Part shown: positions 12,442-47,887 of the stretch, piece after piece
Layout of the letters: the number at the start of each line of letters is the position of its first letter
Position numbering within the stretch: position 1 is the first letter of the stretch
Assembly (NCBI RefSeq): GCF_044704955.1
Contig: NC_091984.1
Coordinates: forward strand, 106,392,001-106,456,000
Length of the DNA stretch: 64,000 nt
Origin: Pristiophorus japonicus
Lineage: Eukaryota
Direction of reading: 5' to 3'
Position numbers and translations under genes: made by a program
The notes under the pieces: generated by a model
What the model was told of the DNA's origin: nothing
Seen by the model: only the letters and a program-made list of their open reading frames with translations
The model's database searches: none

Positions 12442-13995
12442 GGGCCCAAGTTTCCACACGCGCCTAGAACGGCGCAGTCCCGACCTGGACGCCTGTTTTT
12501 CGCGCCACAAAGTGCGCCTAAAAAAAATCCTCGGTATTCTCCACCTACTTGCAGGTCCTCTGGCCCTCGGCGCAGCCAGCACGAGCTGTGGGGGGGCGGA
12601 GCCAGGTCCCTGCGCTGAAAACAGTGCCGGGACCTCTGCACATGCGCGCTAAAGTGGGCACGCAAGTGCAGTAGCTCCAGGTGCCGAACTGTGTGGGAGG
12701 GGCCCGAAGCACGCAGCCCCTAACCCTGGCTGAATGGCCTCACTGGGCCTGCGTGAATAAGGCTCCTCCCGCGGCCAGCTCCTGCTCTCCCGCCCCCTCG
12801 ACAAGACCCGACACCCACTCTCCCCCCCCCCCCCCCCCCTCCGCACCAGACCAGACCCGACACCCGCTCTCTCACCCCCCCCTCCCCCGCCTCCGGACCC
12901 GACCCGACACCTGCTACCCCCCCACCCCGCCTCTGGACCAGACCCGCCCCCCCCCCCCCAACTGACCCGTCTCGACCCGCGCTCCTGTTCCCGCTCCCCG
13001 CCCCCCCGACTGGACCCGACCCGACCCTACCCGCGCTCCTGTTCCCGCTCCCCGACTGGACCCGACCCGACCCGACCCGCGCTCCCGCCCCCCGACCTGA
13101 CCCGACTCCCGCTCCCGGACNNNNNNNNNNNNNNNNNNNNNNNNNNNNNNNNNNNNNNNNNNNNNNNNNNNNNNNNNNNNNNNNNNNNNNNNNNNNNNNN
13201 NNNNNNNNNNNNNNNNNNNNNNNNNNNNNNNNNNNNNNNNNNNNNNNNNNNNNNNNNNNNNNCTCTCCCTCCGCCCCCCCCTCCCTCCCTCCGCCCCCAC
13301 CCCCCCCTCCCTCCCTCTCTCCCTCTCTCTTCCCCCCCCTCTCTCTCCTCCCCCCTCTCTCTCCCCCCCCTCTCTCTCCCCCCCCCCCGACCAGAACCGA
13401 ACCTCCCCTCCCCGACCCGAGCCAACCCAACGCCACCTACCTGTAAATCTGGTGCTGGGGACGGGCCCTGCCCGAAGTCTCGGGCCGGCCCGTTCAGCCT
13501 TCGGTCCCGAAAGGCCTGCCTGAAGCACTTTCACACAGGTAGGAAGATGGTTTATTTAATCTTTTCTTTGCTTATAAATGTTTATTCAGGTTGGATTTAT
13601 TTGTATAATATTTGTATAAGTATAAATAAGGATTTATTATAGAATTTAATGACTTCCCTTCTCCCCCCCCCCCCCCCCACCTCGTTCTGGACGCCTAATT
13701 TGTAACCTGCGCTTGATTTTTTAATGTGTAGAACAGGTTTTTTCAGTTCTACAAAAATCTTCACTTGCTCCATTCTACTTTAGTTTGGAGTACGTTTTCA
13801 CTGTGGAAACTTTGAAATCAGGCGTCAGTGGCCGGACACGCCCCCTTTGAAGAAAAAATTCTGTCCAAAGTAGAACTGTTCTACCTGACTAGAACTGCAG
13901 AAAAAAAAATGAGGAGAATTGCAATTTCTAAGATAGTCCGTTCTCCACCAGTTGCTCCTAAAAATCAGGCGCAAATCATGTGGAAACTTGGGCCC
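12442..13995 (+). mobile_element. Non-autonomous Harbinger element with internal GC-rich minisatellite
   Basis: Perfect 17-bp TIR GGGCCCAAGTTTCCACA...TGTGGAAACTTGGGCCC with TSD TAC/TAC. Internal (CCCGA)-rich array spans an assembly gap. Confidence 0.92.
13121..13262. other. Assembly gap (N run) inside a C-rich minisatellite
   Basis: Run of 142 N; the true array length is unknown. Confidence 0.99.
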
Positions 13996-15041
13996 TACAT
14001 ATCTATAGAAGCTTTTACAATCTGTTTTTATGTCCCTTGCTAGTTTAATCTCAAGTTATCTTTTCTCTTTCTTTATCAATTTCTTGGTCATCCATTGCTG
14101 AATTCTCTAATCCTCCCAATCCTCCGGACTCCTCTTTTTGGCAACATTATAAGTCTCTTCCTTTAATCTAATACTATTTTTAACTTCTCTTGTTAGCCAT
14201 GGTTGGACTACTAATCCCATGGGGTTTTTATTCCTTAGGGGAATGTATTTTTGCTGTGAATTATGAATGCATTCCTTAAATCTTTGCCATTGCTTATCGA
14301 CCGTCATATCTTTCAATCTAGTTCCCCAATCTACCTTAGCCAACTCGCCTCTCATTCCTATGTAGTTTGCTTTGTTCAGATTTAAGACCCTAATTTGGGA
14401 CTCAACTAAATCACTCTCAAACTCAATATAAAATTCTGTCATATTATGATCACTCTTCCCCAGAAGCTCCTTTACAACAAGGTAATTAATTAACCCTTTC
14501 TCATTGTACAATACTAGATCTAAAATAGCCTGTTCCTAAGTTGGTTCCGTGACATACTGGTTGAGGAATCTATCTTGAATGTATTCCATGAACTTGTCCT
14601 CTACACTATTACTGCAAATTTGGTTTGCCCAGTCTATATGAAGATTAAAGTCCTCCATGATTACTGTATTACCCTTGTTACATGCAACTCTAATTTCCTG
14701 ATTTATACTCTGCCCGACACTACAACTATTGTTAGGGGGCATATAAACTACTCCCACCAGTGTTTTCTGCTCCTTATTTCTTAGTTCCACCCAAATGGAT
14801 TCTAATAATTCATTTTCCGAGCTAAGATCCTTTCTTTCTACTGTCTTTATTATCATCCTTTATTATCAGGGCTACCCCTCTTTTCCATTTTGCCTATCTC
14901 TTCTAAAAGTCAAGTATCCTGGAATATTTAGTTCCCAACTGCAACCATGTCTCCGTAATGGCTACTAGATCAAATTAATTTATTTCTAATTGTGCTATTA
15001 ATTAATCCTATTTTTGCAAATGTTTCACCTACTCAGATATA

Positions 15042-16417
15042 GGGCTGGATTTTCGGCTCATTTGCTCCTCGATTAGCACCCCGGTGGAGCGTTAAATGCT
15101 GTTTTTGGCCATTATGCCAGGCGTCCGGGATTTACTGTCCGGCCGGAAGATTTGGCTATTGGTTTGCGCCGGCACAAAAACTTACCACCCCGCCCTCCGT
15201 TTTTAGCGTGATGATGACGTCAATCGTTGTGCAATGCTGCGCCAGCACCCCGGATGGAACATTCAGCCTTAACGCCTCATTTAACTTCCTCCCCAGGAAA
15301 TGCCTGAAAAAAACAGGCGGTCCCAGGGTGTGGCATGCGGTATTGGCAGCATTTTTAAATGGAGGGATGAGGATCCTACATTGCAGGTCATATTGACTAC
15401 AATGGTTGCACACATTGTGTGAAGCTCCAACTTGCAATCTTCATTTTTATCTGCCATTACAGTGCCCTTACAACTTCAGTGAGAAAACTTAATGGGGTCA
15501 TTACTAGTTTGCCAGCGTATCATGCTCCATGCTGTTGCCAGGCGGTGTCAAGCTAGAGGAAGGACTATTGGTCATGTTGGCCCATGAATGATAGAAGGCC
15601 GAAGACGTCCGAGGAGGCACGGGTTTACAGACACCAACGCTCAGACCTCTAATTCTCTGAGGAGCAGTTTGTGAGAAGACTGCGCTTCCGAAAGGAAGTA
15701 CTGACAGAGATATGCTATCTCCTATTGGCAGACCAATGCCTGGACTGCTCTGGAGGCAGCCTTCAATACTCCCCTCAACAGGTATCCGAATTCATTGTAG
15801 TGTGCTGCATCTTGCACAGCTTGGCCATCATGAGGGGCCAGGCATTGTCAGTGGGGATTTCATGCCCACCTCAGGAGGAGGAGGAGGAGAACGATGACGA
15901 CAAAGAGCCTGGCGAGGCCCCTATTGGATAGCCACCCCATCCACGGGGGAGGCAGTATGGAGATGCCGGACCAACATTCGCACGTCGCTAGCTTGTAATG
16001 GACTGGCTCTCCTGAATGGAGGAAACTGAGGGATGAAACTGAGGGACACGCTATGTGCCCCCATAAAGGCACATCTCCGGTGAACGTTGGAATGATGCAT
16101 AAGACACCAAAGACAAATGATGAGTCATAAATTTTATTGCAACAAATTCACAAAAACACTCCCCAGCAAAATAAAACCATACAATATACTACGTTATGTT
16201 GCAGGGCACTAAACAACAATTAAACTTCTTTACCGCCGCAAGTTTCGGCTTGGGCGCACAAAGTCCGTTGTATAACGCCTGACTTAACGCCAACGCTCCT
16301 CCAATTTACATTTTCGCTGAAACTTGCAGTCGGAGGCGCAACCTATTTTCAGGTGCTAACTTTTAACATCCCGCCGCGATTAACGCCTCAAAATCCAAAA
16401 ACCCCAAAATCCAACCC
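15042..16417 (+). mobile_element. Internally deleted Harbinger element retaining N- and C-terminal transposase remnants
   Basis: TIR GGGCTGGATTTT...AAAATCCAACCC with TSD ATA/ATA. The remnant FSEEQFVRRLRFRKEVLTEICYLL is fused directly to CLDCSGGSLQYSPQQVSEFIVVCCILHSLAI, so the DDE core is deleted. Confidence 0.88.
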
Positions 16418-17242
16418 ATAGAACCTTTAGCTTTAACTGTTTTCTATTTTTCCCTGATGACGCCTTAGTCTCTAATGCTCTATATCCTTTGTTAAGCTCT
16501 CTGTCCCTTCCTGATCCAATCTGCTTATTTTTACCCAAATCGCTACTCTGCTCTACAGCTTTGACATTTCTCTTAATGCTTTTGAAATTACCCTTTCCTG
16601 AATCCTCCCCCCCCCCCCCCCCCGCCCCCATTCGTTTAAAGCCCTAGTTATTCAATTTGCCAGGACACTGGCTCTAGCCTGGTTTAAGTGGAGTCCGTCC
16701 ACTTAAAGGTATTAATTCCTTACTAGGGTGAGAATCACCTTTATTCATATATGAGCCTTGACAGTTTCAAACTTTTTATAAGGGCGGGCATCACAGCCCA
16801 ATTTTTGTCTCCACTTGAGACCCACACGTATGCTTTCATCACTTTCTAGGGTCACACATGAATGATCGCTTGGGTGAGGTACCAGAGGATGACTGGCATT
16901 TAAGAACCATACTTAAGCAGGAGTGGTATTGAAGTGATAAGAGGCCAACAATTTGAGAATGTTATTATTGAAATACTGTTTGTATTGTAGTGCATAACGG
17001 CAAATATAAATAACCAATTGGCCTGGGCAGGTCTAATGTTTAAATTTCCAAATAGATTTAAAAAGTGACTTTAAAAATATTTGTGATGGAAGGACTTGTT
17101 GGAAAGTACAATGGTATTTATGATCAGATTTGTCCTAGTGGAATTAAATGTAAGTCATTTTTGCAAGTTTAGTGTACTAATTGTACCGCTAGCACTTCTA
17201 ACCAGCGAAACAACTTCAGTAAATTAGTTTTTTTAATTGCAG

Positions 17243-17322
17243 GATTTGGTAGTCCGGTTAACAGACGATATAGATCCATTTTTCCTTTATAACTTGATAA
17301 TTACAGAAGAAGATTTTCAGAG
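17243..17322 (+). CDS. SASS6: SAS-6 coding exon 3 (PISA motif)
   Basis: ttgcag| DLVVRLTDDIDPFFLYNLIITEEDFQ(S) |gtaagc. 80 nt. Confidence 0.97.
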
Positions 17323-18217
17323 GTAAGCAATAGTTTACATACATATTTACTATATTTAGTGATGCTCTTATTTTGATATAGTGCAGTTTGTTTAAAGATT
17401 ATATTTTTCAGCTTGACTGTAGTTTAATGCCAAGAAAAGCATGCTACACAAATTACAATGTGCTATGAGGGAGCACTTCCTCACTTGTTCAGATTCCAAA
17501 TAGAAATAAGAATTGCTGTTAATCGTAGCATAAAGTCACATAGAAACACTGTCTCTCTCTAAAACCTTACACTTCGGTGGTGCTGCTTAGATATCTTCAT
17601 TTACTCTTTTGTATAGAAGGCTTTATTTTGAATCCTGTTCATCATTCTTTTTCTCCTGAAGCAGCCTCGACTGTTTACTGTTTTTTGGTATCTCCGTGTT
17701 GTAAAACAGTGTAGTTTGCAATGTATAGTTCTTAGTGCCGTAAATGTTTTTTTAAAAGGTTAATAACTGTTTTTTTAAATTTCAATCAACTTTGGAAAAG
17801 TTGTTTTGGCTGCTGATCTACTTTTTTTATTAGCACCTCAATATTTGACTGCAATTCAATCAACCTAACATTGGCTAATGGCAGCTCCTCGTTTCATGAT
17901 GTGTGCCAAATGCTATAGAAGGTTTCCAGTGATATGCTCAAGATATATTGCCTTCCAATAGTGCTAAAACCAGAATTGTGCAGCCTGCTTCAAACTCAGC
18001 AAAAGTGTTGGGTATTACATTTCCAGTAAACAAGAACGTTCAGGCTCAATTCTTTTAACTGCAAAGAGAACTTGAATAGCATTGTAAGAAATGGCAGATT
18101 AATGTTTCATCTTTTAGATTGCTGAACATTTATGATTGTTGTAAATATTTGAGGTAACTTAAATGTAGTCTGCAGTATTTAATTGATAATTTTGATTTAT
18201 CATGTCTCCATTCATAG

Positions 18218-18322
18218 CTTAAAACATCAGCAGGGGCTCTTAATAGATTTTTCTGCATTTCCACAAAAATTTATAGACCTTCTACAGCAGTGTATCCAAG
18301 AGCAGAGCAAAGATGTTCCGAG
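18218..18322 (+). CDS. SASS6: SAS-6 coding exon 4
   Basis: ttcatag| [34 protein letters not shown](R) |gtgagt. 105 nt. Confidence 0.97.
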
Positions 18323-19404
18323 GTGAGTGGTGTTTTGAAATGTGCAGTATAGCTGCAAGGTTTGACTTTTTTCAAAGAATAAAAGATTGATGTTGCAATA
18401 TAAATTTCATTTAATACCAGAATTAGTCTAAAGAATGTTCACAAGCAATACAATGTGTAAAATATATATGTTTTTAAATGTGTGTGTTGAGATGGTAAAA
18501 GACAGAACTTATGTTAACAGACAGAAAGAAGGTAAAAGAATAAGTGTAACATTAAGAATAACTATAATAAAGAACCATACCATGAAAATGTATAAGCAAA
18601 GTATAAGATGAAGTAAAATAAAGGTATCTTCAATAAGCAATTAGGAAGGGGAGGAAACCAGATATATGTCGTTGTACTGCTGGCATGGCGTCTGGCGGGC
18701 GAGCCTAAATACCCCCACCGGAGCTGTGCATGCGCACCCAATGTTGCAGCTGTGCATGCATCCAGCCTGAACCACATTTCCTCCAATCAGAAATCTGGTC
18801 CAGCCCACTAGTGTTGCAAATCGACACAGCCTTCGGTTACTCCGGACACTGCTTACAAAAGGAATATAGATGAAACCTGAGGCAGAACATCATATTTGGC
18901 AATGTTTGTCCAGTACACACTGCAACAGTCTGCAGAGTTTAGCAATAAATAACAAAAACCTTAATAGTCAGCCATTTCAAAGAGTCCAATGGTAATGATT
19001 AGGATTCAACTGAACTTCATGGTGTCTGTAATACATTAAAAAAGTCCAATATGTCCAGACTATTTGGCAAGATCAAAAGACATGGAGTAGCGTACCCACA
19101 TTCCTGCTAGCAGCCCCTTGGCTATTGAGGATCTTGAGCTAATCCTCTTGTCAGCAACTACAAATTATCGCCTTAAAGGCTATTGCACAGGTATCCTTCA
19201 ACTAAGTTCTGTCTTCAGATCTCTTTCTCGGGTCTAAGAGAAGTTTTTTTTTTGTTTTGTTTCATTTACTTTGTGAGTATCATTAACAACCCAGAGTTAC
19301 TGAGCTGTAATGTGCTGGAACTATATCTGAATGTTATTTCTTTACTCCTTTTTTTGTAAATTAAATTTAGGCAAATGTAGTATAAACACTTGTGTGTCTT
19401 CCAG

Positions 19405-19576
19405 ATTCCTGCTGCAGTTAGTTTCTTCAGCACCAGTATTTGACTATACACCTGCCTACTTAAATGTTGTGGAGACCAATGCTTTCAAACACTTGAATCA
19501 CCTTTCTCTAAAATTACTACATGGAACAGATGTGGAAATAAAGAAATACTTAGCTACCTGTTTAAAATGTATAAAG
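19405..19576 (+). CDS. SASS6: SAS-6 coding exon 5 (head-head interface, ETNAFKH)
   Basis: ttccag| [57 protein letters not shown] |gtaaga. 172 nt. Confidence 0.97.
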
Positions 19577-19779
19577 GTAAGATGTGTTTTGTATGTGCTC
19601 ATACAAAGAAATGAACATTTTTCACAAAGGTAAATACAAATGAGGGAGGTCACCTGGACATCAATTATTTCAGAGTATTTGTCCCCACTACCGGAAGACC
19701 TTTCCAGGTATTCATCACCGTTTGCATAAAAAATTGCTTCTTGAAATCAGTTCTGAACTTGCCCCTTACCTGTTCGTTT

Positions 19780-21100
19780 GTTTAATTCATTCTTGAGATG
19801 TGGGTGTCACTAGCATGGCCGGCATTTATTGCCCATTATTAGTTGCCCTGAGAAGGTGATGGTGGACTTTCTTCTTTGAGCGGTTTGATACAACTGAGTG
19901 GCTTGCTAGGCCACTTCAGAGGGTGGTTAAGAGTCTCGTTGGTGTGGACTGGCATCATAGGGCCCAATTTTTCCCAACCCCTTTTTTCGGCGCACATACC
20001 CTAAATGCGGCGACTTTGTGCGCTGGAAACGGCACCGAAAGAAAGTGGCCCCATCCTGCCCGCTCTGCCAAGTCTCTGGTGTACCTGCGTGGCGTACAAA
20101 GTGCAGTGGGGGGGGGGGGGGGGCGGAGCAACAGCCCAGCGCAGAAAACATTGCCGGCAGCTGCGTGCATGCGCAGTGGAGTCTGCGCGCATGCTCCTCG
20201 TCCTCCCAGCATGTCCTGCGGGCTGTGAGCAGGACCCTATCCCTGGCCAAGTGGCCTCCCGCACAGGCCGACCGGCCCGCTGACTTCCCGGGCCGAGGTA
20301 GGACTTGAGTTTTATTTTTTATTTATTGATGGTTGTGCTTTGTTTAATGAGGAGAGTTTTGATTCGAGGGAGGGGGAGGAGGAGAGTTTTGATGGGGCGG
20401 GGCGGGGGGCAACTTAAAAGAAATCTTGTTTCTGGCATAAAGGTAGGACTTCTATTTTTTATTATTGATTGCTTATTACTTTTTGTGGTTTGTTTAGTGC
20501 TTTGTAAGTCTTGGTGCAGGTCCTCTCAGCTTCCTTGCATTTTTTATTATTGAATGCTTATTTTTGTGCTTTTGTTTATTGCTTTGTAAGTCTTGGTGCT
20601 TTAAATGTACTAACCTGCGCCAAATTCTTAACTGCCCGCAATGTTTTTCAGAGCTGGCCACATATGCTGACCTAAGTCGATTTGGAGTAAGTTTTAGCTG
20701 GCCAAAGTGGCATAAATTGCCAAAACTGATGTAAATGGCTGGGAATGCCCCCTTTTGGAAAAAAAACTCAACTAAAAAAAATCGGACCCAACTGAGTTAC
20801 TCTGGAGCAAGTTTATTGAGAAAAATGGCGTTTTTTAACTTACACCAGAAAAACCAACTTGCTCCAAAAAAATTGGAGCAAGTCATGGCCAAAATTAGGT
20901 CCATATATAGGCCAGGATGTCAGGTTTCCTTCCCTAAAGGACATTCGTGAACGAGTTTGATTTATACAACAATTCGACAGCTTCGTGGTCAATTTTTCTG
21001 ATACCAGCTTTTTATTTTCAGATTTCCTTTTTGAATTTAAATTCTCAAAATTCTATTGAACTTGCATTCTCTGGAGTATTACTCCAGGTCTCTGGATTGC
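19780..21100 (-). mobile_element. SINE-like repeat (possibly Meta-domain type) split by a Harbinger MITE
   Basis: Minus strand reads GTTCACGAATGTCCTTTAGGGAAGGAAACCTG...GACTCTTAACCACCCTCTGAAGTGGCCTAGCAAGCCACTCAGTTG and is collinear across the 19960-20902 insert. Family assignment is from memory of the consensus. Confidence 0.55.
19960..20902 (+). mobile_element. Non-autonomous Harbinger element (MITE)
   Basis: TIR GGGCCCAATTTT...AAAATTAGGTCC with TSD ATA/ATA. The right arm resembles the reverse complement of 47100-47340. Confidence 0.85.
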
Positions 21101-21101
21101 T

Positions 21102-21690
21102 CATCATCATAGGCAGTCCCTCGGAATTGACTTGCTTCCATTCTAAAAATGAGTCCTTCGGTGGCTGAACAGTCCAATACGAGTACCGCAGTCCCTGTCA
21201 CAGGTGGGACAGATAGTCGTTGAGGGAAAGGGAGGGGTGGGACTGGTTTTCCGCATGCTCTTTCCGCTGCGTTTAGTTTCTGCATGCTCTTGGCGATGAG
21301 ACTCGAGGTGCTCGCGCCCTCCCGGATGCACTTCCTCCACTTGAGGTGGTCTTTGGTCAGGGACTCTCAGGTGTCAGTGGGGATGTTGTACTTTATCAGG
21401 GAGACTTTGAGGGTGTCCTTGTAACGTTTCCTTTGCCCACCTTTGGCTCGTTTGCCGTGAAGGAGTTCTGAGTAGAGCGCTTGCTTTGGGAGTCTCGTGT
21501 CTGGCATGCGAACTCTGTGGCCTGCCCAGCGGAGCTGATCAGATGTGGTCAGTGCTTCAATGTTGGGGATGTTGGTCTGGTCGAGGACACTAACATTGGT
21601 GCGTCTGTCCTCCCAGGGGATTTGCAAGATCTTGCGGAGACATCATAGGTGGTATTTCTTCAGCGACTTGAGGTGTCTACTGTACATGTA
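21102..21690 (-). mobile_element. RTE LINE 3' fragment
   Basis: (ATG)n tail, C-terminal zinc finger TICPTCDRDCGTRIGLFSHRRTH, and LRWAGH..RMPDTRLPKQALY. Confidence 0.9.
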
Positions 21691-21724
21691 CTGGATTGCT
21701 AGTCCAGTACTGAACCCCTAGGTA

Positions 21725-22490
21725 TGACTCCAGCCAGTGGAGAGATTTCTCCCTGATTTCTATTGACCTCAATTTTACGAGGGCTCCTTGATGCTACACT
21801 CAGTCAAATGCTGCCTTTATGTTAAGGGCAGTAACTCTTGCCTCACCTCTGGAATTCAGCTCTTTTGTCCATGTTTGGACCAAGGCTGTAATGAGGTGTG
21901 GAGCCAAGTAGTTCTGGCGGAACCCAAACTGAGCATCGGTGAGCAGATTATTGGTCATCATCATCATCATGGGCAGTCCCTCAGAATCCACTCCTGAAGT
22001 GAGTTCTTTGGTGGCTGAACAGTCCAATACGAGAGCCACAGACTCTGTCACAGGTGGAACAGATAGTTGTTGAGGGAAGGGGTGGGTGGGACTGGTTTGC
22101 CGCATGCTCTTTTCGCTGTCTGCGCTTGATTTCTGCACACTCTCGGCGTTGAGACTCGAGGTGCTCAGCGCCCTCTCTGATGCATTTCCTCCACTTAGGG
22201 CGGTCTTGTGCCAGGGACTCCCAGGTGTCAGTGGGGATGTGGCACTTTATCAGGGAGGTTTTGAGGGTGTCCTTGTAGTGTTTCCGCTGCCCACTTTTGG
22301 CTTGTTTGCTGTGAAGGAGATCTGAGCATTTGCTTTGGGAGTCTCGTGTCTGGCATGTGGACTATGGTTATTGGTAAGTGCCATTTGATCGCACTGTCAG
22401 TGACACTTTCCATCACTTTGCTGATGATTAAAAGTAGGCTGATGGGGCAGAATTGGCCAGATTGGATTTGTCCTGTGGATGGACATAATC
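21725..22490 (-). mobile_element. CR1/L2-group LINE RT fragment interrupted by an RTE 3' fragment (~21955-22365, minus)
   Basis: NLLTDAQFGFRQ...ARVTALNIKAAFD and PISLLLIISKVMES flank an RTE piece that has a (ATG)n tail. Confidence 0.75.
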
Positions 22491-22829
22491 TTAACCATGT
22501 GTGTATTGTAACTAACAAAAAATGAAACACTTTTGTGAAAGATGGATTATGTTATTAACCGTTGCTGGTCAGAATGCATACAGGGCTAAAATTAGATTCA
22601 CTTTGCTGAATCTGTAGCTGCTAATGTTCCTTTATAGCCTATGCTGAGCACCATAAAGTCTAGATTTTGTGCAAAAGGAATAGCATTAATTCCTATTCTG
22701 ACCATGCTCTACTGAACATTCTGGGCAATACTGAACGTTTCTATTTCTATAGCAAGATCTAAATATTGCAAGTTTTCCACTATTGACTTAATAGAAAAAC
22801 CTGTTGAACTCTTTAAATAGTATGTTTAA

Positions 22830-23020
22830 GATAGAAACAAATAAATTAGGTGCAGGTGTAGGCCATTCGGCCCTTTGAGCCTGCACCACCATTCAATAAG
22901 ATCATGGCTGATCATTCCCTCGGTACCCTTTTCCTGCTTTCTCTCCACACCCCTTGATCCCTTTAGCCGTAAGGGCCATATCTAACTCCCTCTTGAATAT
23001 ATCCAATGAACTGGCATATT
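22830..23020 (-). mobile_element. CR1 3'UTR fragment
   Basis: Reverse complement of the CR1 3' ends seen at ~40.7-40.86 kb and ~43.6-43.77 kb. Confidence 0.8.
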
Positions 23021-33368: not shown

Positions 33369-33407
<39 letters not shown>

Positions 33408-37425: not shown

Positions 37426-38626
37426 GTGTGTAGTTTATGTGTGTGTGGAAACACTTGTAAGCATTAAGATTTAGCATACGAGAATCTTTTTTTCTAACTG
37501 GTTTGTATTCTTGATTTCTTAGCTTGTTACAATGTACTAAATATAACATATTGGGGAAGAAGGAGAATTCCTAAACATGTACGAGAGTCAGATATGGGAG
37601 TGGCTGATAATTATACATACTTAAGACTTTTACTTAAATATTAATAAACTCAGATCTTTGAAGATTCTCTTAAGTCAGCCTGTTCTATATAGTGCTTCCC
37701 ACCAATCCAAGTGCATTATGTTATTGTGTGAAATGGATTTTACCTCATTCTTATGACTCACCTGACTGTCACCCCATGGGTTGAGGAGTAGTTCAGGAAT
37801 TTTGCCTCCTCCCTTATGGGTTTCTGCCTTAAATCTAGGTTGAGTGTAATTGAATTATGTAATTATAAGGATGTGATATATTTAGTGCAGTTTCTTGAAC
37901 TGGCCCTCTCTTGTATATTTTTGTAATACTGAACCAGGCAATGGATATACTGATAGATTTAAAATTCTCTGGTTATTTGAGGTTGCCTTCTGCTCCTACT
38001 TCTTTTCCCCTTTTTTCTCTGAAAATCTTAACTAATGCCCATTCAATGAATAGACATTAATTAGGATTGACCTTTGTGATTGTTAACACCATATCTATTA
38101 AATTTAAAGTTTTGTGTCTAGCGTGCATTTATGGTTTCGCACTTCAAAGTAAGGCATGCTAAAAGTGTGACACATTTGTCAGGCAAAAACAAACTACAGT
38201 TGGCTTAAATAACCACTACCCTGTTAAGTTAACCATGTTGTTAGCTTCATAATTAATTAATATTACCCTATCAAAAAAACATTCAATTTAATAGACAGAT
38301 CAGCAACAAGTAAACATCACAAAACCAACCAATCAATTTACTTAATTATTTTCAAAATTCAGCAATCTGGAACATGCAATTATAGTACTACAAAACAAAG
38401 CAATCAACTGCTTAAATAATTTCTTCATACTATTTTCCATTGTTGTTTTCCTCCTTCATTCAAGTAAGTACACACAGTTTTGAAAATAAAATCATTAACC
38501 TGCCTCTAAAATTGGTCAGCTAAATGTTAGAAATGCCCACAAGAAGTTTCCTCCAAATAGACCTGCCTTTCTGTCTGCAGGTTTGAGCTGCAAATTTCAC
38601 CTGTGGCTTGGTTCTTGGTTTTACCA

Positions 38627-38628
<2 letters not shown>

Positions 38629-38657
<29 letters not shown>
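38629..38657. repeat. (TG)n microsatellite
   Basis: About 14 TG units. Confidence 0.95.
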
Positions 38658-38664
<7 letters not shown>

Positions 38665-39544
38665 ATGCTTTTATGTGATGCTTTTTACAATTTTTACCTC
38701 TTCCTGTAGAATACAATACTGTGTGTACTGTGACAGCTCCTATTACATGTCAATCTGGTAGAAAATTTACAGATGACTGAGGTGTGTATGGCAGGGGAAA
38801 GCAACAAATATAAAAATATTTAATATTCTTGCAGTGTTTCATACGGTTTGTCTTTATTAAATAAACATTTGGAGCTAAAAATGTCATTTGTGATGAGGGT
38901 TATGTTTGTTGCTGATGGAATAATGTTTGTGCTGAACCCAGAGGAGGTTGTTTGAAGTATCTGCGAATGGACTTTGTGGTCAGAGTCAGTCAGCCAGCAT
39001 CTATGGCAAATGACTAACTGTTCAAGGTGCTGGTCATTGGAGACGAGACAGTGGAAACATATCTGGTACTGTGTTTTACCAATAGCAACTTTAACAAGCT
39101 CTCTAAATGTAGCATATAAGGAGAGTAAATATATATTTTTTAATCACGAGAAAAAGAAGTAAGGTTTTGGGAAGGGAGGAGGGAAGAATAAATAATCTAC
39201 CTTAATCTACCTATATATTAAGCATGTAAATCCACCACAGGAGTGAAGCAAAAAAAACATTTCTGAATGTTAATAATTAAGAGGTTTAGGGAAAGAAAAA
39301 CAAAGTTACTTAACCAAATTTTGTAATGTGGTAACTGGTATGTAAATAATGAGATTGATATCTTTTGGTATCAGCACAGTCTGTAATGTTTTTATCCAGT
39401 CAGTCAAGTGATAAGTTGCTTCTGTAAATTTACATTGCACTGAAGGGCAAATTGCTATTGTAGGACAACAACAACTACTTGTATTTTTATAGCACCTTTA
39501 ATGCAGTAAATCATCCTAAGGAGCGTTATCAAACAAAACTTATC

Positions 39545-41950
39545 GAATCATAGAATGGTTACAGCACAGAAAAAGGACATTCGGCCCGTTGAACTTGTGC
39601 CGACTCTCAGTTAGTCTCGCTCCCTTATCCTTTCCCTGAGCTCTGCAAATCTTTTTCCTTCAAATACTTATCCAACTCCCTTTTGAAAGATAAGATTGAC
39701 TCTGCCTCTGCCGTCCTTTCAGGCAGTGCATTCCAGTTCCCAACCACTTGCTGCACAATAAAATTTTTCTTATATTGCCTTTGGTTCTTTTGCCAATCAC
39801 TTTAAATCTGTGTCCTCTGGTTCTCGACCCTTCTGCCAATGGGAATAGTTCATCTCTACTCTGTCCAAACATTCATGATTTTGAACACCTCTATCAAATC
39901 TCCTCTCATTCTTCTCTGCTCCAAGTAGAATAACCCCAATTTCTCCAGTCTATCAACGTAACACTAAGCTGGGTGGCAGTGCGAACTGCGAGGAGGATGC
40001 TTGGAGGCTGCAGGAGATCTTGGACAGGTTAGGTGAATGGGCAAATGCATGGCAGATGCAGTATAATGTGGATAAGTGTGAGGTTATCCACTTTGGTGGC
40101 AAAAACAGGAAGGCAGATTATTATCTGAATGGTAACAGATTAGTAAAAGCGGAGGTGCAACGAGACCTGAGTGTCATGGTACATCAGTCATTGAAGGTAG
40201 GCATGCAGGTACAGCAGGCAGTAAAGAAAGCAAATGGCATGCTGGCCTTCATAGCGAGGGGATTTGAATATAAGAGCAGGGAGGTCTTACTGCAGTTGTA
40301 CAGGGCCTTGGTGAGACCACACCTTGAGTATTGTGTGCAGTTTTGGCCTCCTAATCTGAGGAAGGACATTCTTGCTATTGAGGGAGTGCAGCGAAGGTTC
40401 ACCAGACTGATGGCAGGACAGACATATGAAGAAAGACTGGATCGACTAGGCTTATATTCACTGGAATTTAGAAGAATGAGAGGGGATCTCATAGAAACAC
40501 ATAAAATTATGATGGGTTAGATGCAGGAAGAATGTTCCCAATGTTGGGGAAGTCCAGAACCAGGGGCTCACAGTCCAAGGATAAGGGGTAAGCCATTTGG
40601 GACCGAGATGAGGAGAAACTTCTTCACTCAGAGAATTGTGAACCTGTGGAATTCTCTACCACAGAAAGTTGTTGAGGCCAGTTCGTTAGATTTATTCAAA
40701 AGGCAGTTAGATGTGGCCCTTATGGTTAAAGGGATCAAGGGGTATGGCGAGAAAGCAGGAATAGGGTACTGAAGTTGCATGATTAGCCATGATCATATTG
40801 AATGATAGTGCAGACTCGAAGGGCCGAATGGCCTACTCCTGCACCTACTTTCTATGTTTCTATATAACTGAAGTCCCTCATTCCTGGAATCATTCTTGTA
40901 AATCTTTTCTAAAGTGTGGTGCCCAGAATTGGACACAGTACTTCAGTTGGGGCCGCACCAGTGTTTTATATAGGTTCATCATAATTTCTATACTATTGTA
41001 CTCTATATCCCTATTTATGAAGCCCAGGATCCTGTAAGCCTTTTTAACTGCTTTCTCAACCTGCCCTGCCACCTTCAACGATTTGTCCATTCATATTCCC
41101 AGGTCTCTCTGCTTGTGCGCTTCCTTTAAGATTGTACCATTTTGTTTATATATCCTCTCTGTCTTCCTAAAGTTTATCACTCTTCTCACTGTTCACTATA
41201 CAGGTGTCCGAAATCCGGAAACCTCGGGATCGAGGCCATTAATGATTCTGGGTATTTCCGGATTTCAGAACGTCTTTCTGACGTCCTGAACCCGGAAACG
41301 CGCGAGTCGAGGTTCGGGTATTTACGGATTTCGGAACGACTTTCCGGCATGCAAGGTTGGGGGTGCCGTGGTCGCTATGCTTTGCAGTTTTGGCGTACCC
41401 GTGTGCTGGCCGAGGGAAGATGCTGGGGGGGAGGTGGGGAAACCTGCGTTGCGGCCCCAGGAGCAGCGGTGTCTGTGGGTGTGAAGACCTGCAAGAAGAG
41501 ATGGGTTGGAGTTTTTATTTTTTGATTCTTGTGAGTGTTCTGAGAATTTTTGTTTTTTGGATTTTCCCTAGGCCCGGCTCGCAGTGGTAATCGGTTTAGC
41601 AGGGTGACCAGATTCCATAACATTTTCCGGATTCCAGACAACCCCGCCACAGATCGGCCTGGTGTCCGGATTCCGGAACATTCCGAATTTCGGAACTCCG
41701 TATTTCGGATGTTCAACCTGTACTGCCAAGTTTTGTGTCTTCTGCAAATTTTGAAATTGCGTCCTGTACACCCACGCCCTAGTCATTAATATATATCAAG
41801 AAAAGCAGTGGTCCTAGAGCTAAGCCTTGGGGAACAGCATTGTATATGTCGCTCCAGTCCGAACAACAACCGTTCACCACAACTCTCTCTTTCCTGTCAC
41901 TTAGCCAATTTTGTATCCATGCTGCAACTGACCCTTTTATTCCGTGGGCT
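39545..41950 (-). mobile_element. CR1 LINE (minus) hosting a nested plus-strand CR1 (~39960-40864) and a Tigger-like MITE
   Basis: The minus copy is collinear on both sides of the inserts. The plus copy encodes WQMQYNVDKCEVIHFG...LVRPHLEYC and has its own TTTCTATG tail. Confidence 0.85.
41201..41720. mobile_element. Tc1/mariner (Tigger-like) MITE with repeated TCCGGA/TTCGGA motifs
   Basis: TA|CAGGT(5-nt deletion)GTCCGAAATCCGGA ... TCCGTATTTCGGATGTTCAACCTG|TA. Confidence 0.8.
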
Positions 41951-41954
41951 TGAC

Positions 41955-42260
41955 ACCGAGCCACCTAAGGAGATATTAGGGCAGATGAGAGGTACGTTTT
42001 AAGGACCATCTTAAAGGAGGATAGAGAGATGGAGAGCTTTAGAGAGGGAATGCCAGTGCTTAGGGCCTTGGCAGCTGAAGGCACGGCCGCCAATGGTGGA
42101 GCGATTAAAATTGGGGATGCTCAATAACCAGAATTGGAGGAGCACAGATATCTCGGAGAGTTGTAGGGCTGGAGGGGATTGCAGAGATAGGGTGGGGCGA
42201 GGCCATGGTGGGATTTGAAAATAAGGATCAGAATTTTAAAATCGAGGCGTTGCTTAACTG
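41955..42260 (-). mobile_element. L2 LINE 3' region fragment
   Basis: Minus strand encodes RLDFKILIL...RYLCSSNSG.L..P.FNRSTIGGRAFSCQGPKHW, typical of the L2 C-terminus. Confidence 0.7.
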
Positions 42261-43360
42261 ACCATGGTAAACATTAGAAACTGCATCCAGGTCCAGGGTT
42301 TCTTGTGAGCAATGTCATGGGAGATCTTTAAGTATATAGTAGATTTTATTATGACAGTGAATTGGTAAATGTACCATTGCTGGTTCAACTTGCTCCAGTT
42401 ATGTCTCATGCTATTTTTCTATTGCATTTGAAATAAAAACATAAAGCACAGTCGAAAGAAAAGCTCCTAGCTTCCATAGACCATGTACAATCTACTTTAC
42501 CATGAATACTATCCATACATTTACTCTTTCCCAGACATTTCACTTCTGGAATTTATTCCTGCTACTCAGAAAGCAAATAAAATGAAGCTCCAAAATAACT
42601 GCAAAACTTTGCACTATCTATCCACCCCTGACTTGTTGCCTTTCATGGTCTGATGTTTGGCATTCCAGCAAGTCCAGAACACCATGTTCCTCTGTACATT
42701 TTGATTATTTATATCTGTACATGTCCTTATGACTCCCAACCCTGTTTCGAATCATTAATTTGAACAACCTTTTTCTTTTAATTGTTAGTGGATGCAGCAT
42801 TAGCTTCTTTTACTAGGATTATCCTCCACATATCCACTATTGCTTGGGGGGAGGGACGGTGGTGTGGGGACTGAAAATAAAATCCTCCTAAACTTAACCC
42901 ATGCCTGAGGCTTGTGTTGTCTAATTCTGTTCTTCCGGTCAAATTTAAATAACTTGCTTCATTTATATCAGAGACACTTAGTCAATTTTGTTGAGGTTTA
43001 AGGAGTAAATTGCTTAGGGGCTGCTTTACAGACCCACCAAAAGGTTTATTTTTAATAATCATATTTGCTATATACCCTGTATCACATTTTTCTAGCATTG
43101 AATCAATGCACTGAATTTGTTTAACCACTTTTATTAACTAGATTGCCACGTTTGTTTCCACAAACTAGTTGTGTAAAGACTACTGCAAGTCTCAACCCCC
43201 TGTACTGTGCACTTTCTCCACCTAAGCGTCGAGGACAGGCAAAAGGCCAGCCTCCAGAGAACCATAACTCAGTCTGTGGAACTCCGGAAGAACAGGCTTC
43301 CTTAAGTGTCTATGCTGCCTGGCGTGCAGTGGTTCTTCAGTGATTCTGTACTTGCTCTGT

Positions 43361-43767
43361 GTTCAGAAGAATGAGAGGGGATCTCATAGAAATGTTTAAA
43401 ATTCTGATGGGTTTAGACAGGTTAGATGCAGGAAGAATGTTCCCAATGTTGGGAAAGTCCAGAACCAGGGGTCACAGTCTAAGGATAAGGGGTAAGCCAT
43501 TTAGGACCGAGATGAGGAGAAACTTCTTTACCCAGAGAGTGGTGAACCTGTGGAATTCTCTACCACAGAAAGTTGTTGAGGCCAATTCACTAAATATATT
43601 CAAAAAGGAGTTCGATGTAGTCCTTACTACTAGGGGGATCAAGGGGTATGGCGAGAAAGCAGGAATGGGGTACTGAAGTTGCATGTTTAGCCATGAACTC
43701 ATTGAATGGCGGTGCAGGCTCGAAGGGCCGAGTGGCCTATTCCTGCACCTATTTTCTATATTTCTAT
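43361..43767 (+). mobile_element. CR1 3' fragment
   Basis: FRRMRGDLIE...TRGHSLRIRG...RNFFTQRVVNLWNSLP plus 3'UTR tail. Confidence 0.9.
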
Positions 43768-43774
43768 AGACACT

Positions 43775-44232
43775 GGGGGTGAAATTGGACCTTGTTACGC
43801 CTGTTTTCCAGGCAAAAACGGATGCAAAGAGATGCATATTAGGGTGACAACTACCCGTGCCCGAACAATGTTGGAAACACGCCATATTTGTTCGGGTGTT
43901 ACAGAAGTATCCCTGACAGTCAGCTAACACAGGCATTAAGCCCCTTGAATATGCTAAGGAGCCTGAAGGGTGCGCCTCTCAGCGCCACATTAAAACAGCG
44001 GGCCTCTACCGGCCAATTCTCGCCCTACTCCCAGTTACCCCCTCCCCCCCCCACTCTCCTAAATCCACCCCCCAGACTCACATTAGGCCCTTGTTAACCT
44101 CCCTCACCAGTACTCTACTAATGAAGTCAGTAGATCAATTTGCCGTGGTCCTGTCGCTGACCTCATTAGGCACTTGCAGCATGCTCTGCACCCGAATCGT
44201 GCCCAATTCTGGTGAAATCAATTTTCTAGGCC
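43775..44232. mobile_element. Probable Harbinger MITE
   Basis: Imperfect termini GGGGGTGAAATTG...CAATTTTCTAGGCC, flanked by ACT/ACT. Confidence 0.6.
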
Positions 44233-44558
44233 ACTACATTATAAATGCCTGAAACAAAGTATCATATTTCTCTAGAAATCTACATGAATTTATAAACATT
44301 TATTTGTTTTATAACAGATTTGGTGAATTAAATAATGTTCTGTAATAGTGAAATCTGCTATGATGATCTTTTGTTACTGTAAGTTTTACTTTTAATGTCT
44401 GATTGTTAGATTATAGACTAAATCATATGGTCTAATAGGGTGGTAATTATTCCTTTATCCGAAAAACTAGGAGCACATGAGAGGACTTGTAATTTCCAGT
44501 GAGCAAATTACACTGTGTTCTGTTTGACCCTGGACAATGCTACAACATCAGATATACA

Positions 44559-44879
44559 GGGCTAAAAATGTGGGTGCCCCACGTTTGTGGGCGGTGACAT
44601 TCGCAAGGCGCGAGACTTCGCAGCAGGCGCGGAAGTCTCGTCTCTCGCAAGAAATTGTGGTTACTGCCCCCAAAATGAAGTGGAGCGCTAAATCAAGGGT
44701 GGACGCCTCGGGAGTGGGGTGCATGGCTCAGCCAGCGTTGTTACCGCCGCAGCTAAACTCCCGCCGAATTTAGCTGGAGTCGTTAGCGGCATCGCGCCCA
44801 GTCGCAAAGTTGTTTACTCCCTGTTAGAATCCCCCCTGGGGGCGCTAACGGGAGGTGCAAATGACCCGAATTTCTCCCA
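44559..44879. mobile_element. Probable short Harbinger MITE
   Basis: CpG-rich ~320-bp island in AT-rich intron, with GGGCTAAAAAT...GAATTTCTCCC-like termini. TSD unclear. Confidence 0.5.
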
Positions 44880-46067
44880 CTGTGTGTATAAGATCACACT
44901 TCAGTTCATTGTCATTGTATAGTCTTTTTGGTTTCTTTAGCCCATCCATTTTCAGTATGAGAAGTGCACTGTTTTTTTCAGCTGTATGCACAGTTGTTTG
45001 CAGGTTTTGTAGAAAATGTTACAGGTCATTCTGTTAGATAATCATCCTATGTGAATGGCCAAATTAATGGAGAGATCACTTTGCTTTTCAAACACCTGGC
45101 TGTATTAGTGTACAGAATTGTGGCCACATTTGTGCTATACCATATTTGTTCCAACCCATTTTTGACTCGTCCATTACCTCCAACATCAGCCCCAATTTCC
45201 AACCTACCTTTCGAATCCATGATTCTTGAACTTGTCTGCCTACAACTCTGTATCCATCTCTCCCAAAACTCCTTGTTTGAATAGCTCTGGCTCTGCTCTA
45301 CTCATATCATCAACACAGCCCTAGTCAAGTCAGAATGACAATATCTAGGGACTCTGACCATGGTATATTGTTATTCTTCCTAATCCTCTTCCACCTTTCT
45401 GGAGCTTTTGATAAAATAACCACTCACATTCATTGCCTTGCCTCCATTGTCTAGCTCTGGAATTGCCCATCCCTAGTTCTACCAATATAAACATAACCAG
45501 TGCATTTTTAGCAATGGCTTCCACTTTCCTCAATGATCTATCCTGAACCCCTTTTCCTTACTCATCTATATGCTGCCCTCAGTGACATCTGTAGACATGG
45601 GACCAGTTTCCATATGTATGCTGATGACTCCTAACTCTCTCTTTCCATCAACTCTCTTGATTGCTCAATCACATGAGCCTGACCAACTATATGCAGTAAT
45701 GCCAACTCTCGCGAATCCATTGTGAGCGTCGCGATTTTGGAGTGAAATAAAGCATCATGTGATGGAACGCCTAAATCTTGAGGGGGTTTTTGGGGGGAAA
45801 AAAACGCCGATTTGTTCATTCGGGGGAAAAAATTGCCCATTTGGAACACTTTTGAATTCTGAAGAGTCAGCCATCTTGATGTTTTTTAGGTTAAAAATTA
45901 AGAATTTGTTACTTAAAAAAAAATTAAGACAGCAATGACGCTTCCTGGCAAACTGAACTGTACAAATAAATAAAAGTTAAATTTCACCACCAGACGATTG
46001 ATAAATAGCTCCACAGGATGATTAAATCAACTCCCACAAAATCTCTAATCAACCTTTACAAAGTATC

Positions 46068-46443
46068 AGCTGTGGCTCAGTTAGTATCATCCTCGCTTCT
46101 GATTCAGAAGGTTGAGAGTTCCAGTCCCACTCCAGAAACTTGAGTACAAAAAACTAGGCTGACACTCCAGTGCTGCACTGTCGGAGGTGCCGTCTTTCAG
46201 ATGAGACTTTAAACTGAGTTATCCCCGGTGTGCTGGCCGATATTTATCCCTCAATTAACATCACTAAAACAGATTATCTGGTCATTATCACGTTGCTGTT
46301 TGTGGGAACTTGCTGTGCACAAATTGGCTGTCGTGTTTCCCACATTACAACAGTGACTACACTTCAAAAGTACTTCATTGGCTGTAGAACGCTTTTAGAC
46401 ATCCGGTGGTCATGAAAGGCGCTTATATAAATGTAAGTCTTTC
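46068..46443 (+). mobile_element. tRNA-derived DeuSINE (SacSINE1/AmnSINE-like) with an internal deletion
   Basis: A-box TGGCTCAGTTAG, B-box-like GAGTTCCAGTCCC, and Deu-domain sequences GTGCTGCACTGTCGGAGGTGCCGTCTTTCAGATGAG and TATTTATCCCTCAA...CAGATTATCTGGTCATT, followed by an L2-type 3' tail. Confidence 0.88.
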
Positions 46444-47099
46444 TAATCTTGAGTTTGATCCGAACTAACAGGCCAGAGTTTTAGCCTGCTGAATGGCTAC
46501 TTGCTTGCCTGCTGGTGGTGCTGTCAAATAACTGCACACTCTTTCGCTGGGAGCGGCCCATCTGAGGTGACCAATTCTTGTTGTTAATAAAGGGTGAGGA
46601 ATTAAAAGTTACCTAGCAAGGACGTGTGGGAAAATTGCTTGTTGCAGAAAATTAGAATGTAGACCTGGAAAAGATATTGTTGTCAGAACTTTATATACAC
46701 AGCAATCATATTCCCAGGCTCGAGCCCAGGGCACACAGCTTCTGCACGTAAACATTAATATTTAAATTTAATTTTTTTTTAAATCTTGCTCATTTGGGAT
46801 GCACCTAATTGCTTTATTGGATCCCCTTGTCATTCAATGTACCGAGGCGGTGCTACAATTTAGTGGGGCTTGATTTTTTTCTAATTTTCCTTGTTAAGTG
46901 TGATCCTTTCCCCCTAGTCATTTACTAACAGTTTGTAATAAAGTCTGTCCTGACTTAAAAAAATATTTATATATCAGTGCAAAAATGTGCAGATACACTG
47001 TTGTAAGATACAATTATAAAAAAATAAGCCATCCACTAGGATGCATGCAGAAAGGTTACAATGTATAAAACTTAAGATCTGCTTCCTGTTACTCTCTAT

Positions 47100-47887
47100 G
47101 CGCCCAAATTTGCCCAGGAGTTGCTCCATTTTTTTTTGCAGCAACTTGATTTTTCTGGAGTATCTTAAAAATCCCTATTCTGCACATTTAATTTGCCCCA
47201 GTGTAAGTGAGTTAGTTAGGATTTTTTTTAGTTTAGTTTTTTTTTCAGCCATCTACGCTAATAGTTGCTCCAAACTAACTTAGGCAAGTGTATGTGGCCA
47301 CTTGTGGCTGCACAGAAAACCCTTGGGGAGAGTTAAGAAATCAGTGCAGGTAGCCAGAAGTGGGGGGGGCGGGGGTGGAAGGGAAGCGGAGAGGACCTTG
47401 CAAAGCACTAAACACCTTCACAACAACATTCAAGAAGCATAAAATCCATCAGTAATAAATAAAACTTAAGTGCTACCTTCCTAACTCGGCCCGGGAAGGC
47501 AGCGGGCCGACTCCGACTCCGACTCTCTCTCTTGAGGACTCTCTGAGGACATCTCTCCGACAACTTCCAGAACTTCCATCCGACGACTTCCAGGACTTCT
47601 CTCCGTGGACTGACTGCTCTCTCCGTGGACTGACTGCTGTCTCCGAGACCTCTCCGGCTGGGGGCAGGAGCTACTGTACATGGACGAAACCTCCAGTGCG
47701 CATGCGTTGAGCTGCCGGCACTTTTCTTCGCGCAGGGCCCTAGCTCCGCTCCCTAATAGACAGACCACACCGCGCATGGAACAGGCCACAGAGCGGCCAG
47801 AATCCGAGGAGATCTTTTCGCCGCCGTTTTTACCCTAGGAAGTCGGCGCATCTCTGCTGAAAAAACGGGTGGGCCAAATTTGGGCCC
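47100..47887 (-). mobile_element. Non-autonomous Harbinger element (MITE)
   Basis: TIR GCGCCCAAATTTGCCC...GGGCCAAATTTGGGCCC, flanks TAT/CAT. Short internal tandem CTCTCCGTGGACTGACTG repeats. Confidence 0.82.

What the first reader, a model, noticed from the sequence alone, without database searches (positions are those of the whole stretch)
12442..47887. Harbinger MITE family carrying a GC-box + NRF1 + minisatellite + splice-donor cassette (mobile promoter/first exon?)
Seen: four TIR-bounded elements (12442-13995 +, 19960-20902 +, 35708-36998 -, 47100-47887 -) share one internal order despite divergent interiors. First is a GC box: GGGGGCGGAGC at ~12592 and ~20119, GGGAGCGGAGC on minus at ~47750, and GGGGGCGGATC on minus at ~36855. 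Next, 35-75 bp later, is an NRF1-like motif: GCACATGCGC at 12638, TGCATGCGCA at 20166, reverse complement of TGCGCATGCG at 47697, and the CTGCGCGTGCGC palindrome pair at 36738-36773. Then comes a copy-specific tandem repeat, long in two copies and short or nearly absent in the other two. Last is an AG|GTAG donor-like site (13539, 20298/20443, minus ~36158, minus ~47476) followed by a T-rich stretch. Knowledge: Sp1 plus NRF1 (TGCGCATGCGCA) defines TATA-less CpG-island promoters. Inference: these MITEs carry a promoter and non-coding first exon, probably inherited from the parental element, and could splice into host genes. Two copies are sense to SASS6.
Basis: partly seen in the sequence, partly recalled or inferred. 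Interest (0 to 1): 0.72.

Follow-up and report, generated by a model that had tools for sequence, protein, structure and literature searches.

The report
Shark Harbinger miniatures with mismatched flanks
Four shortened jumping-DNA copies in introns of a shark gene are made of the two ends of full-length Harbinger transposons, so the apparent promoter-plus-first-exon unit is a likely promoter from one end joined by deletion to a splice-like site from the other, and about half of the sampled young copies have unequal three-base flanks, likely carried in from the previous site.

Summary
The four TIR elements and their motifs are real. All lie in SASS6 introns, two sense and two antisense. They are internal-deletion derivatives of at least two autonomous Harbinger families found in this shark genome. 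The GC box and NRF1-like pair come from the left end, upstream of the Myb/SANT gene. NRF1-like sites occur there in 23 of 25 such ends and in 0 of 14 right ends, so this is likely the Myb gene's promoter. The repeat, donor and T-rich tract come from the right end, about 4 kb away and antisense to the transposase. The 'promoter + first exon' was therefore not inherited as a unit. Three copies lack the YY1-like start element, inserted copies show no clear excess motif conservation, and no RNA could be tested. More surprising: 34 of 73 young copies (11 of 19 in an unranked sample) have unequal 3-bp flanks; at paralogous empty sites one side usually equals the target and the other is foreign. This fits carry-over of the donor's 3-nt overhang. 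An earlier scan note describes a donor-bearing Harbinger MITE in another genome; one word search found no note on mismatched flanks.

The parts
12442..13995 (+). E1, non-autonomous Harbinger element in SASS6 intron 2 (sense); flanks TAC|TAC; mosaic: left cassette resembles parent family C, right end matches parent family B
   Evidence: 144-206 vs C 78-82%; 1075-1554 vs L056 96%
12592..12669 (+). E1 GC box, 35-bp spacer, NRF1-like site (12637-12648) and degenerate second site; no YY1-like element follows
12790..13390 (+). E1 C-rich minisatellite / simple-repeat block
13516..13995 (+). E1 right end, equal to the parent B transposase-side end, with CAG|GTAGGA (GT at 13539), T-rich tract, and a GC-box-like site ~150 bp from the right TIR on the other strand
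19960..20902 (+). E2, non-autonomous Harbinger element in SASS6 intron 5 (sense); flanks ATA|ATA; positions 1-237 match the left end, and 276-337 and 646-937 the right end, of parent family C
20119..20197 (+). E2 GC box and NRF1-like pair (20164, 20186); the deletion joint follows directly, no YY1-like element
20295..20448 (+). E2 donor-like sites GAG|GTAGGA (20298) and AAG|GTAGGA (20443), in the part that follows the right-end-derived block
35708..36998 (-). E3, non-autonomous Harbinger element in a 2.5-kb SASS6 intron (antisense); flanks TAT|ATG (3 of 3 differ); positions 1-291 and 819-1291 match the two ends of parent B
36705..36857 (-). E3 two GC boxes, NRF1-like pair (36772-36761, 36750-36739), decayed Inr/YY1-like element; AATAAA follows at ~36667
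36211..36607 (-). E3 33-bp minisatellite, related to a 1-2-copy repeat upstream of the parent B transposase
   Evidence: CGGGAAC unit seen by eye in L056, L052, L057, L044
47100..47887 (-). E4, older non-autonomous Harbinger element in a SASS6 intron (antisense); flanks ATG|ATA; decayed GC box (47753), NRF1-like site (47708-47697), decayed donor (47476)
5343..53137 (+). Host gene SASS6; coding exons at about 5343, 9856, 17243, 18219, 19403, 23584, 29474, 34382, 34662, 37333, 48830, 53057, in protein order

Best explanation
The four elements are internal-deletion (non-autonomous) derivatives of shark Harbinger transposons, in which a likely promoter of the element's Myb/SANT gene from the left end has been joined to repeat, donor-like and T-rich sequence from the transposase-side end, and most copies are likely methylated passengers rather than working first exons. 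Shown: parent anatomy (left TIR, GC box, 35 bp, NRF1-like pair, CACTCGGCCATTTT, Myb ATG; convergent transposase; donor antisense in the right end), the deletion joints, no clear excess motif conservation after insertion, and CpG decay. Inferred: Sp/KLF, NRF1 and YY1 drive the Myb gene (motif names recalled), which explains why the motifs are conserved between families but not within inserted copies. Second, shown: about half of the young copies sampled have unequal 3-bp flanks, usually with one side equal to the target. Inferred mechanism: the excised element carries the donor's 3-nt overhang, this is joined across the 3-nt target gap as a heteroduplex, and repair or replication fixes the donor bases at roughly 3 in 10 ends (my arithmetic).
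For: Parents: L056 (4,629 bp, TAT|TAT, Myb_DNA-bind_5 on +, DDE_Tnp_4 on -) and L303/L304. NRF1-like site in 23 of 25 Myb-side left ends from five groups (Myb exons 35-94% identical to L056 where measured), in 0 of 14 right ends, background 6 in 59 kb. YY1-like GCCATNTT follows it in 17 of 25 (background 0.08 per kb). Donor at L056 position 4169 versus NRF1-like sites at 225/247 and transposase ATG at 3893 on the other strand; present there in 13 of 15 B elements. Motif versus other non-CpG columns: GC box 40/1125, donor 27/879, rest 2532/85212; CpG change 8-11% in and out of motifs. Flanks: 39 equal, 17/11/6 with 1/2/3 differences among 73; 8 equal of 19 in an unranked sample. Mutation at 4-10% per site predicts at most 2 double and under 0.1 triple mismatches; internal change at A/T sites is 1.4%. 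42 of 57 flank differences are A<->T versus 64 of 284 inside (p=3e-13). 14 mismatched copies have a 3-bp gap in paralogous empty sites with one side matching. At one recurrent LINE-tail target (TAT in 116 of 120 empty sites), 3 of 7 insertions are perfect and 4 have TAT on one side only. mPing carries donor TTA/TAA into Cas9 breaks (PMC11254759, passages) and is proposed to be cut with 5' overhangs (PMC4561436, passages and part 3 of 5).
Against: No transcript, start-site or binding data; the promoter rests on motif position. NRF1 non-CpG columns are slightly more conserved (1.9% vs 3.0%, p=0.02). Donor-compatible variants (GTAGGA, GTAAGA, GTGAGT, GTGATT) sit at the same GC-to-T boundary in several lineages, and outward donors occur near the left TIR; passive inheritance does not fully explain this. 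No exact parent was found for E1's left end or for E4 (68-82% local matches only). Conservation samples were the best 30-40 hits among thousands and are not independent. For carry-over: in yeast, 45 of 46 insertions of an mPing with TCA/TCA flanks were reported in TTA/TAA (PMC4561436), which may mean little carry-over there. Five mismatched copies show gaps other than 3 bp (L259, L262, L271, L335; L229 by eye), one is ambiguous (L316) and one uninformative (L325). No donor-daughter pair was traced.
Confidence: 0.68

Rival explanations
1. One reading: the shortened elements act as mobile promoters with a non-coding first exon that splices into host genes, here SASS6. It would have arisen de novo at the deletion joint and been favoured in some copies.
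For: Promoter-type motifs and a donor are now 100-900 bp apart in the right order; E1 and E2 are sense to SASS6 and CpG-rich; donor-compatible variation at the boundary across lineages; Harbinger MITEs overlap liver-specific open chromatin in Xenopus (PMC12676858, passages).
Against: The donor comes from the other end of the parent. E1, E2 and E4 lack the YY1-like element and E3 has AATAAA before the donor. No excess conservation of GC box or donor; CpG decay. Orientation here is 2 sense, 2 antisense. The first in-frame Met after exon 2 is M309. The two isoforms listed begin in exon 1.
Confidence: 0.12
2. The GC box and NRF1-like palindromes are binding sites for the element's own Myb/SANT protein, or structural parts of the transposition complex, and not a promoter.
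For: The Myb-like protein binds element ends in Harbinger3_DR (PMC2836001, PMC9392472, passages). A GC-box-like site lies ~150 bp from the right TIR as well in 8 of 14 right ends. GGCGC/GGAGC units repeat at both ends. The deletion derivatives examined keep the left ~240-290 bp.
Against: NRF1-like sites occur only at the Myb end (0 of 14 right ends), upstream of the ATG, and are followed by a YY1-like site; they stay the same while the Myb exons diverge to 35% identity.
Confidence: 0.2
3. The unequal flanks arise without donor carry-over: from ectopic recombination between copies, error-prone filling of the 3-nt gaps, or greater age than the internal identity suggests.
For: Chimeric copies exist (E1; L015). 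A few junctions have larger gaps. In the older E2/E4 families single mismatches can be ordinary mutation.
Against: Flanks are contiguous in the same host repeat with a 3-bp gap (14 cases). E3 (3 of 3 mismatched) lies between consecutive SASS6 exons. Both sides stay 92% A/T like true targets, and transitions are 4 of 57.
Confidence: 0.3

Closest known systems
Vertebrate PIF/Harbinger elements (Harbinger3_DR and Harbinger3N_DR; described in PMC2836001 and PMC9392472, passages read; Sinzelle 2008 itself not held)
   Same: Two genes (DDE_Tnp_4 transposase, Myb/SANT protein), TIRs, 3-bp target register, extended palindromic target preference, non-autonomous derivatives.
   Different: W-rich degenerate 3-bp target; about half of sampled copies have unequal flanks; a conserved GC box / NRF1-like / YY1-like arrangement before the Myb gene. 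I found neither described in the held library.
mPing/Ping/Pong (Tourist MITE; PMC4561436 passages and part 3 of 5; PMC11254759 passages)
   Same: Deletion derivative of a two-gene parent; staggered cut at the 3-bp flanks; donor TTA/TAA seen carried into Cas9 breaks.
   Different: mPing inserts almost only at TTA/TAA and free insertions are described as having intact duplications; here foreign trinucleotides are common at natural insertions.
piggyBac at non-TTAA sites (Li et al. 2013; Mitra et al. 2008: titles seen only in the reference list of PMC4786924; content recalled)
   Same: Recalled: the element carries a flank-derived overhang and leaves unequal flanks at non-canonical targets.
   Different: Different superfamily, 4-bp TTAA, rare events (recalled); here 3 bp and about half of sampled copies.
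Harbinger-N12A_XT MITE at Xenopus liver open chromatin (PMC12676858, passages)
   Same: Harbinger MITE with host transcription-factor motifs.
   Different: There 21 of 3,521 copies overlap ATAC peaks, read as enhancers; here there are no functional data and the motifs trace to the parent's Myb-side end.

Membership tests
PIF/Harbinger superfamily | Autonomous partner with DDE_Tnp_4 transposase sharing the ends | tested here: met
   L056 405-aa ORF, PF13359 E=3e-39; ends 89-96% to E3/E1; L303/L304 ends 74-90% to E2; only 68-82% local matches for E4
PIF/Harbinger superfamily | Second gene encoding a Myb/SANT protein | tested here: met
   PF13873 E=1e-4 on L056 exon; 63-68% matches in L303/L304
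PIF/Harbinger superfamily | Terminal inverted repeats | tested here: met
   17-bp perfect in E1, 16-bp in E3, imperfect in E2 and E4
PIF/Harbinger superfamily | 3-bp target site duplication | tested here: inconclusive
   The 3-bp register holds (empty-site gap 3), but an identical duplication is seen in only 39 of 73 and 8 of 19 young copies
PIF/Harbinger superfamily | Target preference extending beyond the 3 bp | tested here: met
   Palindromic bias in 73 flanks, e.g. C/T at -4 in 68, G/A at +4 in 72
MITE (Tourist-like) | Non-coding, high copy, homogeneous short length | tested here: inconclusive
   No transposase or Myb match inside the four elements; 8,614 exact matches of a 25-nt right end, autonomous copies included; but 0.8-2.3 kb with variable minisatellites
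TE-derived alternative promoter / first exon | Transcription start within the copy and splicing to a host exon | not testable with these tools
TE-derived alternative promoter / first exon | Motifs more conserved than the rest of the element after insertion | tested here: not met
   only non-CpG NRF1 columns marginally lower
TE-derived alternative promoter / first exon | Promoter and donor contiguous in the parent | tested here: not met
   3.9-4.6 kb apart with two genes between

The most novel reading that the evidence does not exclude
Shark Harbingers integrate by joining a donor-derived 3-nt overhang into a degenerate target, so thousands of copies record the flank of their previous address and every insertion can rewrite three host bases. 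Their Myb gene runs on a conserved NRF1/YY1 housekeeping-type promoter, which deletion fuses to an outward splice donor, giving a large pool of ready-made promoter-exon units of which a minority may be active.
Probability: 0.45. Interest if true: 0.7.

Novelty: new variant of a known kind. Interest (0 to 1): 0.5.

Why it matters
The cassette itself is mostly ordinary: two ends of a parent joined by deletion. Two by-products matter more. First, unequal 3-bp flanks in about half of the young copies give genomic evidence on how a vertebrate Harbinger joins its ends, a step so far inferred from mPing assays. The mechanism is directly testable with marked donor flanks, and TSD-requiring annotation would miss many such elements. 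Second, a conserved GC box / NRF1-like / YY1-like arrangement before the Myb gene across divergent families points to how these two-gene transposons are expressed and silenced, since NRF1 binding is methylation-sensitive (recalled).

Tried and rejected
Run search for RNA on window 14050-23950: none was listed; this is no evidence either way, and no reads were laid. The first 20 transposase stretches (L041-L060) and 30 Myb loci held no E2/E4-type parent; family C was found only by an unranked pattern sample. No autonomous element was seen among the 30 best E1-left hits. Rejected: a single family; a 2-bp TSD (empty-site gap is 3); flank mismatch by mutation alone; a subfamily-wide inversion of the donor (seen only in L045). 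A splice acceptor just before the B transposase ATG is not evident in families C and D, so I set it aside. Papers not held: Sinzelle 2008, Li 2013, Mitra 2008; Repbase-type descriptions of shark Harbingers could not be consulted, and no supplements were read. Earlier-finding searches by sequence and for mismatched TSDs returned nothing. Rows dropped: 25 of 98 loci and 11 of 30 lacked a second TIR in the fetched DNA; 6 and 10 of 30; 14 and 15 of 30; 22 alignment columns with over 40% variation; columns with over 10% variation in the spectrum; L046 could not be oriented.
Full report
Observation. The four elements exist as described: E1 12442-13995(+), E2 19960-20902(+), E3 35708-36998(-), E4 47100-47887(-). 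The GC-box pattern occurs exactly once in each and nowhere else in the window. They are not one family: E1 and E3 share the last ~480 bp (95%) and the first 86 bp (76%), while E2 and E4 are older, with best genomic relatives at 84-89% and 70-85%. In family majority lines the GC box to NRF1 spacer is 35 bp and the NRF1-like site is a pair 22 bp apart; E3's type has two GC boxes. Motif names (Sp/KLF, NRF1, YY1, Inr) and the donor matrix are recalled, not from a call.

Host. One exon matches SAS-6 structures and another is 100% identical to a protein labelled Pristiophorus japonicus, so the host is a shark. Twelve coding exons map in order on + from 5343 to 53137. E1 is in intron 2 and E2 in intron 5 (sense); E3 and E4 are antisense in later introns. 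The two isoforms in the one cluster examined both start in exon 1, and the next in-frame Met after exon 2 is M309.

Parents. Of 20 stretches around DDE_Tnp_4 hits, 15 share the E1/E3 right end. L056 is 4,629 bp with TAT|TAT flanks, a Myb_DNA-bind_5 gene from the left (ATG 518) and a convergent 405-aa transposase (ATG 3893, minus strand). E3 positions 1-291 and 819-1291 are its two ends. An unranked sample of 30 of 450 exact E2 right-end matches gave 2 autonomous elements of a second family (L303, L304; transposase about 50-64% to L056). Their left end carries the E1/E2/E4-type GC-box/NRF1 block and their right end carries E2 positions 276-337 and 646-937. So in both families the promoter-like motifs come from the Myb end, and the repeat, donor and T-rich tract from the transposase end, 3.9-4.6 kb away. 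No exact parent was found for E4 or for E1's left part.

What the left motifs are. An NRF1-like site lies in the first 420 bp of 23 of 25 Myb-side ends from five groups (three of these ends had no transposase in the fetched DNA), in 0 of 14 right ends, and only 6 times in 59 kb of background. A YY1-like GCCATNTT follows in 17 of 25, usually as CACTCGGCCATTTT. This order is typical of TATA-less promoters (own knowledge), so I read it as the Myb gene's promoter; this is inferred. E1, E2 and E4 lost the YY1-like element at the deletion joint; E3 has a decayed copy followed by AATAAA. Against this reading, a GC-box-like site also lies ~150 bp from the right TIR in 8 of 14 ends, and the Myb-like protein is known to bind element ends (PMC2836001, PMC9392472, passages), so a role in transposition is not excluded.

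The donor. It is present antisense to the transposase in 13 of 15 B elements (inverted in L045, anchor not found in L054) and varies GTAG/GTCG in four family C elements. Donors of this strength occur 0.43 times per kb per strand. Other non-autonomous lineages show AAG|GTAAGA, TGG|GTGAGT or CAG|GTGATT at the same GC-to-T boundary, and several have an outward donor near the left TIR. This is unexplained and keeps a U1-related role open.

Conservation after insertion. In alignments of 25-73 copies per set, non-CpG change was 3.6% in the GC box, 3.1% in the donor, 1.9% in NRF1 columns and 3.0% elsewhere; CpG change was 8%, 10% and 11%. The copies were top-ranked hits and are not independent. There is no clear sign of selection or of protection from methylation in bulk; single active copies are not excluded.

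Unequal flanks. Of 98 young loci, 73 had both TIRs: 39 have identical 3-bp flanks, and 17, 11 and 6 differ at 1, 2 and 3 positions. An unranked sample of 30 of 8,614 exact right-end matches gave 19 usable copies, 8 identical. Older families gave 8 of 24 and 7 of 20, and 3 of 16 and 6 of 15. Mutation cannot give the young pattern: internal change at A/T sites is 1.4%, models at 4-10% per site predict at most 2 double and under 0.1 triple mismatches, and 42 of 57 differences are A<->T against 64 of 284 inside. Where the element landed in another repeat, paralogous empty sites show contiguous flanks with a 3-bp gap and one side equal to a target state in 14 mismatched copies (8 left, 6 right). 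One copy was ambiguous, one uninformative and five had other gaps; other gaps also occur at matched copies (L011, L063, L273). At one recurrent LINE-tail site, TAT in 116 of 120 empty sites, 3 of 7 insertions are perfect and 4 have TAT on one side only. E3 itself differs at all three bases and lies in a 2.5-kb intron between consecutive exons.

Mechanism for the flanks (inferred). mPing is proposed to be cut with 3-nt 5' overhangs (PMC4561436) and brings donor TTA/TAA to Cas9 breaks (PMC11254759). With a degenerate W-rich target, joining that overhang across the target gap makes a heteroduplex; fixation of donor bases at roughly 30% of ends reproduces the observed match rate (my arithmetic, using 10.6% chance identity). 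Against: 45 of 46 insertions of a TCA-flanked mPing in yeast were reported in TTA/TAA (PMC4561436), and I traced no donor-daughter pair. A similar effect for piggyBac is recalled; only the titles were seen.

Comparison and verdict. These are non-autonomous PIF/Harbinger elements: transposase, Myb gene, TIRs and extended target preference are met, and the identical TSD only in about half. Ten searches of the held library (listings, plus passages of eight papers or preprints and the abstract of one more) showed no description of frequent unequal flanks or of an NRF1-type promoter in vertebrate Harbingers; subscription papers and Repbase were not available. Interest 0.5, carried mainly by the flank result.

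Noticed in passing
window ~24950-28900 and 15734-15874: Decayed Harbinger of another family (81% DNA to L050; transposase 57% to L056 at 24968-25840) inside a SASS6 intron, plus a transposase fragment at 15.7-15.9 kb.
   Followed up: no
window 57539-58152: GC-rich 26/30-bp minisatellite of about 21 copies, with a TIR-like GGGCCC and a minus-strand AGGTAGG just before it; no match to the parents tested.
   Followed up: partly
E2 ~19999 (-); L234 and L101 MITE position 87; many of L243-L302 at position 40: Outward-facing GT(A/G)AGT donor-like site on the strand opposite the Myb gene near the left TIR, also present in parent family C.
   Followed up: partly
L233:~5200-5550 and L235:~3800-4130 (element orientation): Long imperfect inverted repeat upstream of the transposase in family D, seen by eye; not folded.
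   Followed up: no
L015, E1, L204: Chimeric ends between subfamilies, and one young element nested in an older relative's right end.
   Followed up: partly
L055, L056, L163, L197, L308, L322, L331: The short tandem 3' tail of a LINE-like repeat is a recurrent insertion target.
   Followed up: yes
L072:2285-3329: A related MITE carries a ~170-bp internal insert unlike the rest of the family that looks like a captured mRNA piece (by eye).
   Followed up: no
window 5343-17325: An annotated SASS6 isoform (P0001) starts in exon 1 in another frame and skips exon 2, i.e. splices across E1.
   Followed up: no
window 62001-64000: CpG-island-like stretch (GC 0.60-0.64, CpG o/e 0.69-0.93), not examined.
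   Followed up: no
genome-wide: Very large Harbinger load: 89,387 first-look candidates for DDE_Tnp_4 and 43,029 for Myb_DNA-bind_5 (not copy numbers).
   Followed up: no
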